Of a stretch of 64,000 nucleotides of DNA, positions 2,282-11,464 are shown piece by piece; the first letter of the stretch is position 1, and every line of letters starts with the position of its first letter. Source of the stretch: Lingula anatina. Lineage: Eukaryota > Animalia > Brachiopoda. The DNA lies in contig CM120642.1 of the NCBI GenBank assembly GCA_051362555.1, positions 29,822,001-29,886,000 on the forward strand, in the 5' to 3' direction. Under the pieces are notes generated by a model. That model did not search any database. It saw only the letters and a program-made list of their open reading frames with translations, and had not been told where the DNA came from. Made by a program: the position numbers and the translations under genes.

Positions 2282-2433
2282 GTCGTACATTTCCTACACA
2301 CGAGTACTTCACCACTCCACTGGGCGTGGGTCAACTGTCCCTCTTCAACTTGCTCAAGGCATACTCATTGTTGGACACAGAGGTCGGCTACTGCCAAGGA
2401 CTCAGCTTTGTGGCTGGTATCTTGTTAATGCAT
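2282..2433 (+). CDS. TBC1D1: TBC1D1/4-family exon containing the catalytic R finger and YxQ Q finger
   Basis: Acceptor gctccag, donor CAT|gtaagt. [10 protein letters not shown]...[31 protein letters not shown] contains the canonical TBC motifs. Confidence 0.95.
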
Positions 2434-2823
2434 GTAAGTACACTTACTTTGCAGTCACTCAATAATTGTTGCTGCTTTGTTTATTCAAGGCTGTCTTGTA
2501 ATTGGAGTCAGAGATCAGCTTAGACTAGAAGCCTGTTAATCAGCCACATGACTGGTATCTTGTTGATGCATGTTAGGCTGTCCACATGTAAAATTGTGTT
2601 TTTTTATTGTATCTGTATAGTGGACACAGCACTAGTCAGGAAGCCATTCAGGTGTGTTTTTGACTCTCTTTTTCAGTTTTTTTACCAGATTTTTATTTAT
2701 TGGAACCTAGATGGCCTGTAAAAAAAGGAAATTATACTTTTTTCAGAATCCTGGTTGAACCTCTGATGGTCAGCGTCTGTAAATGATATTGAAATTTCAT
2801 AAATGTTTCATTTTCTCCCTCAG

Positions 2824-2916
2824 ATGCCAGAAGAGGAGGCATTTGATACTCTTATCTACATGATGTTCTACATGGGGTTCAGAAGACAGTACAGGCCAGA
2901 CATGACCTCACTACAG
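2824..2916 (+). CDS. TBC1D1: TBC1D1/4-family exon (31 aa; absent from the ORF track)
   Basis: Acceptor ttttctccctcag, donor CAG|gtaagg. Encodes MPEEEAFDTLIYMMFYMGFRRQYRPDMTSLQ. Phase 0 at both ends, in frame with the neighbouring exons. Confidence 0.92.
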
Positions 2917-3527
2917 GTAAGGAGGGATATTAGAACATGGGGTTCAGAAGACAGTACAGGCCAGACATGACCTCACTACAGGTAAGGAGAGATATTAGAA
3001 CATGGGGTTCAGAAGACAGTACAGGCCAGACATGACCTCACTACAGGTAAGTAGAGATATTAGAACATGGGGTTCAGAAGACAGTACAGGCCAGACATGA
3101 CCTCACTACAGGTAAGGAGGGATATTAGAACATGGGGTTCAGAAGACAGTACAGGCCAGACATGACCTCACTACAGGTAAGGAGAGATATTAGAACATGG
3201 GGTTCAGAAGACAGTACAGGCCAGACATGACCTCACTACAGGTAAGGAGAGATATTAGAACATGGGGTTCAGAAGACAGTACAGGCCAGACATGACCTCA
3301 CTACAGGTAAGGAGGGATATTAGAACATGGGGTTCAGAAGACAGTACAGGCCAGACATGACCTCACTACAGGTAAGGAGAGATATTAGAACATGGGGTTC
3401 AGAAGACAGTACAGGCCAGGCATGACCTCACTACAGGTAAGGAGAGATATTAGAACATGGGGTTCAGAAGACAGTACAGGCCAGACATGACCTCACTACA
3501 GGTAAGGAGAGATATTAGAACATGGGG
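2870..3527 (+). repeat. Minisatellite: 10 near-identical 65-bp units plus a partial 11th, each copying the exon 3' end and its splice donor
   Basis: Unit acatggggttcagaagacagtacaggccagacatgacctcactacaggtaaggagRgatattaga. The catggggttc motif recurs at 2871, 2936, 3001 and so on to 3456, with a partial copy at 3521. Confidence 0.97.
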
Positions 3528-3655
3528 GTAGGAGGCAGGGATATAAAATAGTCTATGAAACTCCCATGTTTACTGCTTGTGTAGAGAATTTGGTATTATA
3601 TGCTATGTATGCTACACATAGTAAGTCATGTAACCTTTTCATTTCGAGTTTGATA

Positions 3656-3767
<112 letters not shown>

Positions 3768-4053
3768 TGGGAACATATTTGTTGTTTGTTTCTCGCCAAA
3801 GGATAGGCTTAGGACTTATTCTTTATGATTTTAACTCGGTCAACATAACTGCAGGATACTCTAGGAAATACTCTATATGAAATAAGGATTTTATCTAGCA
3901 TATGAGGAATTATTAAAGCAAACTGTATGCTCATTCACTTAATGGTAAAGTTTTTGAGAATTGATTACATATACATCTAATAATATGCATCTTTAAGCTT
4001 TTAATACAAAATAACATTATAGATTAGCTCGATGAATATTCTTTATTTTCCAG

Positions 4054-4213
4054 ATTCAAATGTATCAACTTCAGCGTTTGTTGCACGACCACTACAAGGA
4101 GCTATATGAGCATTTTGAGGAAAATGAGATCCACCCCACTCTCTATGCGGCCCCTTGGTTCCTGACTCTGTTTGCCTCACAGTTTCCACTGGGATTTGTC
4201 GCCAGAGTGTTTG
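4054..4213 (+). CDS. TBC1D1: TBC1D1/4-family exon
   Basis: Acceptor ttttccag, donor G|gtaaat. Encodes [53 protein letters not shown], a strongly TBC1D1/4-like segment. Confidence 0.95.
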
Positions 4214-4741: not shown

Positions 4742-4911
4742 ATCTGATATTCCTGCAGGGTATGGAGGTGATCTTCAAGGTGGCGCTGGTGTTACTGGGA
4801 AGCCATAAGGAGCTGGTTCTGCAGTGCAGCAGCTTTGAGACCATCGTGGAATGTCTGAAGACCACCCTGCCTGAGATGAGTATGATACAGATGGAGAGAG
4901 TCATCAATCAG
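4742..4911 (+). CDS. TBC1D1: TBC1D1/4-family exon, end of TBC domain
   Basis: Acceptor ttcttccag, donor CAG|gtactt. Encodes [57 protein letters not shown]. Confidence 0.93.
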
Positions 4912-5361: not shown

Positions 5362-5973
5362 GTGTTCAACCTTGACATCTCCCAACAGTTGAATTCCTAT
5401 GAGGTGGAGTACCACGTCCTGCAGGAGGAGATGTTGTGGTCACCACAGCAAGGGAACATGGACATTGAGAGACTGGAACAAGCCAACCAGAGTCTCAAAC
5501 GACAAAACATGCAGATGCTGGAACAGCTCCAGACGGCTCACAATCAGAACCACACACTAGAGGTCACTCTTGGCAATCTTCAGGGCAGCCATAACAGACT
5601 GAAGTCCCATTTGAAAACCCTAGAGCTTGAACGGACTGCTTTACTTAACACAGTGGCTAAACTGAAGGCGCTGATACCCCCAGAGAAGATATCACAAGCA
5701 GGTATTTCTCTGCCAGATTTGATGCAGAATATTCCACACACTCTTCATTCTGGGCAGGATGGAAACAAAAATAACTTTGAAGGTGGCACGTACGATGATT
5801 CTGATACGGAGGTTGCAATAATCACCAAAGAAAAGCAAGATCAGAGCAGGAAGAGGTTCAGCAGTGGAGAGAGCGTCCCAAGATTGGGGAACTTGATGCA
5901 TCGCTCTCCTAGAGGAAAATCCCCACTTGTCCTCCATGAAGAAAAAAGTCAACAAAGACCGGATTCCCACTGA
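5362..5973 (+). CDS. TBC1D1: TBC1D1/4-family last coding exon (coiled coil and disordered tail)
   Basis: Acceptor ttttgtcctcag. VFNLDISQQLNSYEVEYHVLQEE matches the family YEVEYHVLQEE motif, followed by a heptad-rich segment. Stop TGA at 5971-5973. Confidence 0.93.
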   Translation: MFNLDISQQLNSYEVEYHVLQEEMLWSPQQGNMDIERLEQANQSLKRQNMQMLEQLQTAHNQNHTLEVTLGNLQGSHNRLKSHLKTLELERTALLNTVAKLKALIPPEKISQAGISLPDLMQNIPHTLHSGQDGNKNNFEGGTYDDSDTEVAIITKEKQDQSRKRFSSGESVPRLGNLMHRSPRGKSPLVLHEEKSQQRPDSH

Positions 5974-6712: not shown

Positions 6713-6772
<60 letters not shown>

Positions 6773-6795
6773 CGCGCGCGCGCGCGCGCGCGCGC
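6713..6795. repeat. (TG)n-(CG)n compound dinucleotide repeat
   Basis: About 26 TG units followed by about 15 CG units. Confidence 0.95.
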
Positions 6796-9963: not shown

Positions 9964-10804
9964 TTAGATATATTTTTCAGAACTTTCTGGGAAAGTTTCT
10001 ATGGTGCTTTCTTCACCCTGTAACGAGGCAACGCCATTCCCCTCCTCATCGGTAATGTTATGTGCGATGTTTGAGATAACATGCGTCTCAACAGACACAG
10101 TGTTACGTGGTTGCGTTTCCCCTGATGGTTCTGCTGCCTCTTCCGTTGGTGGTTGTGTTGGTGATTGTGCTGGGTGTTCTGTTGGCGATCCTGTTGGTAG
10201 TTCTGTTGGTTCTGTTGATGGTCCTGTTGGTAGTTCTGCTGGTTCTGTTGATGGTCCTGTTGGTAGTTCTGGTGGTGTTTCTGTTAGCGGTTCTGTTGAC
10301 AGTTCTGTTGGTGGCCGTGTTAGCTGTTCTGTTGGTGGTTCTGTTGATGGTCCTGTTGTTGGTTGTGTTGGCGGTTCTGTTGATGGCTCTGTTGATGGTT
10401 CTGTTTGCTGTTCTGTTGGTTGTTCTGTAGGCGGTTCTGTTGGTGGGCCTGTTGGCGGTTCTGTTGGTTGTTCTGTAGGCGGTTCTGTTGGCGGTACTGT
10501 TGGTGGGCCTGTCGGTGGTGCTGATGGCGGTGGTGGTGAAGGCGGTGCAGGAGTGCCAGCCATAACATAGGGACCCGCACTGACCATAACCTGTCCAGCG
10601 GTAACTCCAGATGACCCGCTCACACCAGGGACATCTTGCGCAGAGTATCCAGCCACTTTGGCTGTGTTTTGAGCATAGACGGCGGCATACCCAGACACCG
10701 GGGCCGCGTTAAGTTGAGGACTGGCTGAACTGACCGCGGAAGCAGAGGCTATCGGAATGTTGTCAAACTCTAGAAACTGTGACGTCCTCTTAGCCAAATA
10801 TACC
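9964..10804 (-). CDS. Uncharacterized four-repeat protein, exon 8 (last): end of repeat 4, then an Ala/Ser-rich region and a Pro/Thr/Glu repeat tail
   Basis: Minus-strand acceptor ttataaccacgtag. Phase 2 joins IR|VYLAKRTSQF in frame with ORF 9964..10797. Stop ends at 9964. Confidence 0.8.
10140..10545 (-). repeat. Coding low-complexity repeat with ~12-nt units (PPTE/PSTE/QPTE/PTG)
   Basis: Recurrent ggttctgttggt-like units on the + strand translate to PTEP repeats on the minus strand. Confidence 0.9.
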
Positions 10805-11357: not shown

Positions 11358-11380
11358 CTGGAGCGAAATAAAAATGAGTT

Positions 11381-11464
11381 AACAGAGACAAGATGTACAA
11401 TTTATGAGATAACAGAGACAAGAAGTACAATTTATGAAATAACAGAGACTCAACGTACAATTTA
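11381..11464. repeat. 30-bp tandem repeat, about 2.8 copies, intronic
   Basis: aacagagacaagatgtacaatttatgagat at 11381, with variants at 11411 and 11441. Confidence 0.85.

What the first reader, a model, noticed from the sequence alone, without database searches (positions are those of the whole stretch)
2870..3527. An exon-intron junction amplified 10 times: tandem array of live splice donors in the TBC1D1/4 gene, with only the first giving a full-length protein
Seen: the 65-bp unit consists of the last ~47 nt of a coding exon plus the first ~18 nt of the intron. CAG|GTAAG donors therefore occur at 2917, 2982, 3047, 3112, 3177, 3242, 3307, 3372, 3437 and 3502. Reading past the first donor meets an in-frame TGA at 2968-2970, so splicing from any later donor directly to the next exon truncates the TBC domain. 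Established: such premature stops with downstream junctions are typical NMD substrates. Inference: copy number could act as a VNTR dial on productive Rab-GAP mRNA, or a mechanism must enforce use of the first donor.
Basis: partly seen in the sequence, partly recalled or inferred. Interest (0 to 1): 0.8.

Follow-up and report, generated by a model that had tools for sequence, protein, structure and literature searches.

The report
Leaky splice-donor repeat in brachiopod gene
In the lamp shell Lingula, the end of one exon of a vesicle-traffic gene (TBC1D1/4) is repeated ten times together with its splice signal, a repeat type already known from lancelets and human genes, but in three RNA samples roughly a fifth of the messages likely splice at the spare copies and would make a cut-short protein, while two other samples show none of this.

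Summary
Observation confirmed: 10.1 copies of a 65-bp unit (47 nt exon end + 18 nt intron start) in Lingula anatina TBC1D1/4, ten CAG|GTAAG donors, in-frame TGA at 2968-2970. The unit junction is also in contigs of two other samples, so an assembly artefact is unlikely. The architecture is known: 'mirage' minisatellites of amphioxus and human F7, CBS, IFI6, LMNB2, PDGF. This scan has noted many more, including in this genome. What the RNA adds: in three polyA runs of one study, 70 of 214 reads on the unit carry the intron-derived 18 nt, all on the gene's strand, with almost no reads in the unique intron (2, 0, 0). This points to splicing from later donors in roughly a fifth of the mRNA (rough range 0.1-0.3), some from donor 3 or beyond. 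It is inferred from count tables, not seen in single reads. Two runs of other studies show none (0 of 29 reads). Best reading: a slippage-born, unselected repeat with leaky donor choice, like CBS and IFI6 and unlike the silent amphioxus mirages. A copy-number dial and NMD remain untested.

The parts
2870..3527 (+). Tandem array, 10 full 65-bp units plus 8 nt; unit = 47 nt exon end + 18 nt intron start
2824..2916 (+). 93-nt coding exon in the TBC domain; ends at donor 1 (CAG|GTAAGG, 8 of 9 consensus positions)
   Evidence: junction reads to exon 4054 in 5 of 5 RNA runs laid
2982..3502 (+). Nine later donors at 65-nt spacing; donor 3 (3047) is CAG|GTAAGT, 9 of 9 consensus, the others are identical to donor 1 over -3..+8
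2968..2970 (+). In-frame TGA met after reading through donor 1 (17 new residues, then stop)
3520..3527 (+). 8-nt microhomology, identical to 2870-2877, at the array's far edge; likely seed of the first duplication
   Evidence: match shown; role inferred
3528..4053 (+). Unique remainder of the intron, with a CA/AT/T microsatellite block at 3659-3766; RNA depth 2, 0, 0 over 3542-3625
4054..4213 (+). Next exon; the only sequence found joined behind the unit's donor in RNA
   Evidence: loose-end consensus agreement 1 in 5 of 5 RNA runs; Pfam PF00566
1040..5973 (+). Last seven coding exons of TBC1D1/4 (1040-1204, 1646-1816, 2282-2433, 2824-2916, 4054-4213, 4742-4911, 5362-5973), one open frame of 506 aa

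Best explanation
This is a junction-spanning ('mirage'-type) minisatellite, likely born by slippage at an 8-base match between exon and intron and likely unselected, whose spare splice donors likely take about a fifth of the mature message in some samples and would give a truncated protein or a decay substrate. Steps: (1) shown: ten near-identical exon-end/donor units with the 8-nt match at both edges; (2) inferred: one misaligned repair or replication event made two units and unequal exchange expanded and homogenised them; (3) shown: polyA RNA of three runs holds array sequence on the gene's strand, some reads spanning two full units; (4) inferred from count tables: these molecules leave the array by splicing to exon 4054, not by intron retention; (5) inferred: donor 1 wins about four times in five because it is made first and closes a normal-sized exon, but the donors are strong and 65 nt apart, so a later one is sometimes taken; (6) predicted: the stop at 2968 sends these mRNAs to NMD or yields a 1058-aa protein lacking the last 77 residues of the TBC domain; (7) untested: the two runs without leak come from animals with a short or absent array.
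For: Array and microhomology. Other individuals: run X1 contigs differ from the window at 5 flanking positions plus an indel and hold the 2934-to-2870 junction (depth 611.6, core unit 733.3, flanks 91.6-99.5); X5 holds it too (288.5 against 68). RNA: X11 on 2395-2934, 96 reads, depth 28 on the intron part against 42-47 on the unique exon, 40 back-joints from 23 starts, zero depth in the upstream intron, one strand only. X11/X12/X13 on 3437-3646: 73/70/71 reads, depth 28/18/24 on the 18-nt part, 41/46/41 loose ends to exon 4054, unique intron 2/0/0, back-joints with 65 nt on the shorter side in 3 of 3. Retention predicts 10-18 intron-exit reads for 5-10 copies, 2 seen; and 67-82% two-part reads at read length 142, 33 of 70 seen. 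Implied share of later-donor mRNA 0.13-0.26 under uniform models. No masking structure (z +1.27). Precedent: PMC1557585, PMC3087553.
Against: No single read joining intron part, unit and exon 4054 was displayed; later-donor splicing rests on exclusion and on my geometry model of a tool whose thresholds I had to assume. On the entry side there is no clear deficit: 63-76 of 96 exon-anchored reads go straight to exon 4054, where donor 1 alone predicts 71-80% (hand arithmetic). The exit-side deficit was significant for X11 and X12 but not X13. With mates halved and 15 copies, the intron-exit test alone is not significant (P 0.15). Reads near the microsatellite may be filtered out. The three positive runs are one study, about 6% of each run read. 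X14 and X17 show no leak (0 of 16, 0 of 13 reads). Neutrality is inferred, not tested: 0 of 6 variant columns hit the core donor, which is uninformative.
Confidence: 0.66

Rival explanations
1. The array-bearing RNA is retained or slowly spliced intron; only donor 1 is ever used, as in F7 and the amphioxus mirages.
For: 2 reads in X11 do run into the unique intron. No entry-side deficit. F7, LMNB2, PDGF and amphioxus cases use only the first donor (PMC1557585, PMC3087553, PMC3902484). The tool warns that dips in depth may come from its filter.
Against: Unique intron depth 2/0/0 against 10-29 reads expected for 3-10 copies, counting only reads that end before the microsatellite; long arrays also fail the two-part-read ratio (P below 0.001 for 8-10 copies at all three read lengths). 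Upstream intron depth 0. X11 has 41 reads to exon 4054 against 39 across the previous junction.
Confidence: 0.13
2. The array is a heritable or tissue-tuned unproductive-splicing dial on Rab-GAP dose: more copies, or more U1/SR activity, send more mRNA to a stop.
For: Leak differs between studies: 28 of 96 against 0 of 29 reads on the same stretch, Fisher P 0.0003. Contig depth ratios differ between samples (about 7-8 and about 5 against 10 in the window, rough). CBS repeat number is reported to lower enzyme activity (PMC5188458, review passage).
Against: No matched DNA and RNA; depth is not copy number by the tool's own warning. In F7 minigenes 1-12 copies did not change donor choice (PMC1557585). 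Unit types differ between samples, as in free turnover. Notes of this scan report such arrays at many Lingula introns (unchecked), which fits a mutational habit rather than gene-specific design.
Confidence: 0.15
3. The array or the repeated RNA reads are artefacts (assembly stutter, genomic DNA in the library, or a copy of the unit elsewhere).
For: X1 and X5 are only guessed to be DNA; no contig spans the array; no whole genome was held, so other loci could not be searched.
Against: Unit-to-unit junction in two other samples with their own variants; reads on one strand only in X11-X13; zero upstream-intron depth; unit variants in RNA that are absent from the window. X1 depth of about 7-8 copies leaves little room for copies elsewhere (rough).
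Confidence: 0.04

Closest known systems
Human CBS intron-13 31-bp VNTR, c.1444_1467+7(16_21), and IFI6 (6-16) intron-2 minisatellite (PMC1557585 introduction; PMC2630376 passages; PMC5188458 passage; the primary papers were not read)
   Same: First unit spans the exon-intron border, every unit repeats the donor, and pseudo-donors are used besides the true one. For CBS, more repeats are reported to lower enzyme activity.
   Different: Different gene and phylum; longer unit, mostly exon-derived. There two extra donors are used; here the read ratios suggest on average about three extra units, which I could not resolve to named donors. Here every later donor gives the same premature stop.
Human F7 IVS7 37-bp VNTR and the 'oriented scanning' model; LMNB2 100-bp and PDGF 81-bp repeats (PMC1557585, parts 1-4 of 6 read)
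   Same: Identical donors in tandem; the most upstream one dominates.
   Different: F7 uses only the first donor unless a later one is a perfect consensus. Here identical 8-of-9 donors appear to leak, and a memoryless leak of 0.2-0.3 per donor does not fit the reads.
Amphioxus 'mirage' minisatellites: Adh3, globins BflGb6/BflGb9, troponin C, PGBD5 (PMC3087553 passages; PMC3902484 passage)
   Same: Tandem copies of an exon-intron boundary in a marine invertebrate, length-variable, homogenised within arrays.
   Different: Those are reported not to disturb splicing or give aberrant mRNA; this one appears to in 3 of 5 RNA runs laid.
Intron-proximal rule for two strong 5' splice sites (PMC3413131 passages)
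   Same: Strong duplicated donors more than 45 nt apart can both bind U1, giving a route to later-donor use.
   Different: That rule predicts near-total use of the downstream site; here donor 1 still takes most mature mRNA, and last-donor-only use of an 8-10-copy array does not fit. NMD could hide part of the downstream use.

Membership tests
Junction-spanning ('mirage'-type) minisatellite | Head-to-tail units whose first copy spans a real exon-intron boundary | tested here: met
   exon confirmed by RefSeq identity and RNA junctions
Junction-spanning ('mirage'-type) minisatellite | Splice signal repeated intact in the intronic copies | tested here: met
   10 of 10 units have CAG|GTAAG
Junction-spanning ('mirage'-type) minisatellite | Present in the genome of other individuals | tested here: met
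   Unit-to-unit junction in contigs of 2 of 2 DNA-like runs laid, X1 and X5; both only guessed to be DNA
Junction-spanning ('mirage'-type) minisatellite | Copy number varies between alleles | tested here: inconclusive
   Depth ratios of about 7-8 and about 5 against 10, but the tool says depth is no copy number; no spanning reads
Junction-spanning ('mirage'-type) minisatellite | Turnover and homogenisation of units | tested here: inconclusive
   98% identity, a variant in units 1, 4, 7; other unit types in X5 and X11-X13; no phylogeny of units possible
Silent subtype (F7, LMNB2, PDGF, amphioxus mirages) | Only the first donor is used; no aberrant mRNA | tested here: not met
   Read-through of donor 1 in X11, X12, X13; met in X14 and X17 at low depth (0 of 29 reads)
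Leaky subtype (CBS, IFI6) | Pseudo-donors spliced to the next exon in mature RNA | tested here: inconclusive
   Favoured by exclusion of retention; no single-read proof
Regulated unproductive splicing (AS-NMD) | Premature-stop isoform stabilised when NMD is blocked | not testable with these tools
   Stop lies upstream of later junctions; no NMD-block data
Regulated unproductive splicing (AS-NMD) | Event conserved across species or condition-dependent | not tested
   No orthologous genomic DNA fetched; sample tissue and genotype are coded
TBC1D1/TBC1D4 Rab-GAP family (host gene) | PTB + DUF3350 + RabGAP-TBC architecture | tested here: met
   P0001: PF00640, PF11830, PF00566 at 909-1118; named TBC1D1/4 by sources

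The most novel reading that the evidence does not exclude
The array is a natural allelic or tissue-tuned splice dial: identical strong donors share the splicing in a way that neither strict first-donor scanning nor the downstream-site rule predicts, array length sets how much TBC1D1/4 mRNA is lost to a premature stop, and the surviving product is a 1058-aa PTB-bearing, GAP-defective inhibitor. Invertebrate mirages would then be a hidden, widespread source of expression variation rather than silent scars.
Probability: 0.13. Interest if true: 0.7.

Novelty: new member of a known kind. Interest (0 to 1): 0.42.

Why it matters
The repeat type is known and, by this scan's unchecked notes, common in Lingula, so the structure alone is ordinary. 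The useful part is the RNA: invertebrate mirages are described as silent, yet this one appears to divert about a fifth of steady-state mRNA to stop-bearing forms in some animals. If long reads confirm that, the locus is a ready natural test of how the spliceosome chooses among identical strong donors (first-made against nearest-to-acceptor), and a case where such repeats carry a real expression cost.

Tried and rejected
No whole genome was held, so other copies of the unit and the genome-wide frequency of such arrays were not tested. The run search listed no RNA holder by index; that blank was not used as evidence, and the RNA runs were added by species label. 7 of 20 listed runs were laid (X1, X5, X11-X14, X17); X2-X4, X6-X10, X15, X16, X18-X20 were not. 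RNA structure hiding later donors: rejected, z +1.27, 91 of 100 shuffles fold as well. A coding role for the array: rejected, 65 is not a multiple of 3 and the read-through peptide has no Pfam hit. Cryptic acceptors in the unit: 10 AG sites, none with a pyrimidine tract by eye, and reads keep the whole 18 nt. Skipping the 93-nt exon would be in frame; not testable on the stretches laid. Models that fit badly: donor 2 only, last donor only for 8-10 copies, memoryless leak of 0.2-0.3. Excess of variants in the intron part, 4 of 6 columns, P 0.054: not significant. Paper searches: one search found 0 papers; PMC10078293 passages held nothing on junction-spanning repeats; (Lingula, tandem repeat, splice site, intron) gave 2 papers, neither on this by title or abstract start; one search gave 4 papers on mirage. 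No supplements were read. No structure or complex was predicted.

Full report
Observation. Tandem Repeats Finder gives 2870-3527, period 65, 10.1 copies, 98% matches. The ten units differ at only 5 of 650 cells, in three columns: one in unit 9, one in unit 3 (which makes that donor a perfect CAG|GTAAGT) and one shared by units 1, 4 and 7. Seven exons between 1040 and 5973 join into one open frame of 506 aa when donor 1 is used; each of the 9 later donors gives the stop at 2968-2970. The last exon is 100% identical to Lingula anatina TBC1 domain family member 1, XP_013417491.1; 3 of 3 isoforms in that cluster use donor 1, and 37 of 37 proteins held keep the motif across this junction. In P0001 numbering the junction follows residue 1041; read-through gives 1058 aa, losing 77 residues of the TBC domain (909-1118) and 313 in all. 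The two catalytic-finger motifs (assignment recalled, not from a call) at 955-962 and 995-999 are kept.

Origin. The 8 bases at 2870-2877 in the exon recur at 3520-3527, 18 nt into the original intron. A misaligned copy between these two matches gives exactly this unit. That it happened so is inference. A common unit variant in other samples (column 60, A to G) extends the resemblance between exon and intron upstream of the match (one search prints both).

Is it real? No genome was held. The run search listed 20 runs; I laid 7. X1 contigs differ from the window at five flanking positions and one indel, and contain the junction 2934-to-2870 at depth 611.6, with the core unit at 733.3 and flanks at 91.6-99.5. 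X5 holds the junction at 288.5 against 68 for the exon-side contig, with a different unit type. The ratios suggest about 7-8 and about 5 copies, but the tool warns that depth is no copy number, and both runs are only guessed to be DNA. An assembly artefact is unlikely; copy-number variation is probable but not shown.

RNA, first stretch (2395-2934, one unit). X11 (polyA): 96 reads, all one strand, depth 42-47 on the unique exon, 68-78 on the 47-nt part, 28 on the intron-derived 18 nt, 0 in the upstream intron; 40 back-joints from 23 starts; 41 loose ends reading into exon 4054; 39 reads across the previous junction (25 joints, 6 and 8 loose ends). X14 (16 reads) and X17 (13 reads), from two other studies, have 9 loose ends each to exon 4054 and no depth on the 18 nt. 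The difference is 28 of 96 against 0 of 29, Fisher P 0.0003 (mates not treated as dependent).

RNA, second stretch (3437-3646, last unit plus unique intron). X11, X12, X13 (one study): 73, 70, 71 reads; depth 28, 18, 24 on the 18-nt part; 41, 46, 41 loose ends behind the donor, all to exon 4054; unique intron depth 2, 0, 0; back-joints 29, 22, 25, each run with a read having 65 nt on the shorter side, so it passes at least two donors. A geometry model shows that retention would give 10-29 reads leaving into unique intron for 3-10 copies, counting only reads that end before the microsatellite; 2 were seen. Long retained arrays also predict too many reads with two 18-nt parts (33 of 70 seen). 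The best fits have about three extra units on average and a later-donor share of about 0.13-0.26; assuming 1 to 9 extra units widens this to 0.07-0.42. Joints per read in X11 (1.43) fit three or more extra units. Donor 2 only, last donor only of a long array, and a memoryless leak of 0.2-0.3 fit badly.

Against this reading. The tool shows tables, not reads, so no single read from array to exon 4054 was seen, and my model assumes its thresholds. Exon-anchored reads show no clear deficit of direct donor-1 joins (63-76 of 96, expected 71-80%; hand arithmetic), whereas reads anchored in exon 4054 do in X11 and X12 but not X13. There are more exits (128) than entries (96); 3' bias, noise, or 3' decay fragments of stop-bearing mRNA could explain it, and I did not test these. 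The filter for human-like reads could thin the intron. All positives are one study at about 6% of each run. Tissue and genotype of the runs are unknown, so the zero in X14 and X17 may reflect a short allele, tissue, stronger NMD or low depth.

Mechanism. Donor 1 is transcribed first and closes a 93-nt exon; later donors make exons of 158-678 nt. In F7, the first of several identical donors is used exclusively, and competition appears only with perfect sites (PMC1557585, parts 1-4 of 6 read). For two strong sites 45 nt or more apart the downstream one is used almost wholly (PMC3413131, passages). These donors match 8 of 9 consensus positions and are 65 nt apart, between the two regimes, so a first-donor majority with a leak is the likeliest behaviour; this step is inferred from mammalian work. 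No RNA structure hides the donors. The stop lies upstream of further junctions, so NMD is expected (recalled rule; untested in brachiopods), and the splice-level leak may exceed the steady-state share. A truncated human AS160 fragment inhibits GLUT4 vesicle fusion (PMC3089500, start of abstract only); that one is far shorter, so it is only a lead.

Comparison. Minisatellites whose first unit spans an exon-intron border are described for human F7, CBS, IFI6, LMNB2 and PDGF; CBS and IFI6 use two extra donors (PMC1557585). CBS repeat number is reported to lower activity (PMC5188458, review passage; primary paper not read). Amphioxus mirages have the same build and are reported not to disturb splicing (PMC3087553, PMC3902484, passages). 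Notes of this scan list 47 findings with these words in at least 25 genomes and several in this genome; they gave me the term 'mirage' and the paper, which I read. I did not check their frequency claims. I found no paper on this locus in the searches, which cover an open-access library only.

Verdict. A real, new member of a known kind, most like the leaky CBS and IFI6 cases. The architecture is ordinary; the apparent sample-dependent leak of about a fifth of mRNA into a stop-bearing form is the part worth a long-read check. Interest 0.42.

Noticed in passing
window 2402-2438 and 2540-2576: A decayed second copy (81% over 37 nt) of the end of exon 2282-2433 with a GT lies 138 nt into the next intron: likely an older two-copy junction duplication in the same gene. 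RNA depth there is 0 in X11, X14, X17.
   Followed up: partly
window 3044-3052 (unit 3 donor): One unit carries a perfect consensus donor, stronger than the true one. This variant was not listed in X1, X5 or the RNA runs, so it may be private to the window's haplotype, where it would be predicted to draw more splicing.
   Followed up: partly
window 2433: In X17, 3 of 4 junction reads show C at the last base of exon 2282-2433 (silent His codon, donor position -1); X17 also has A to G at 2886 in 4 of 8 reads, absent from X1, X11, X14.
   Followed up: no
window 2824-2916: Skipping this 93-nt exon keeps the frame (476-aa fragment); F7 constructs skip the exon when early donors are lost. Not testable on the stretches laid.
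   Followed up: no
window 10141-10531: Degenerate 12-bp repeat, 33 copies, 71% matches; by eye it looks like a Pro/Thr-rich coding repeat on the minus strand. Not translated.
   Followed up: no
window 11374-11464: Three copies of a 30-bp unit (80-93%), relation to any exon unknown.
   Followed up: no
window 3659-3766 and 6713-6795: Compound microsatellites (CA)22(AT)15 T36 in the array's intron and (TG)26(GC)16 downstream of the gene.
   Followed up: no
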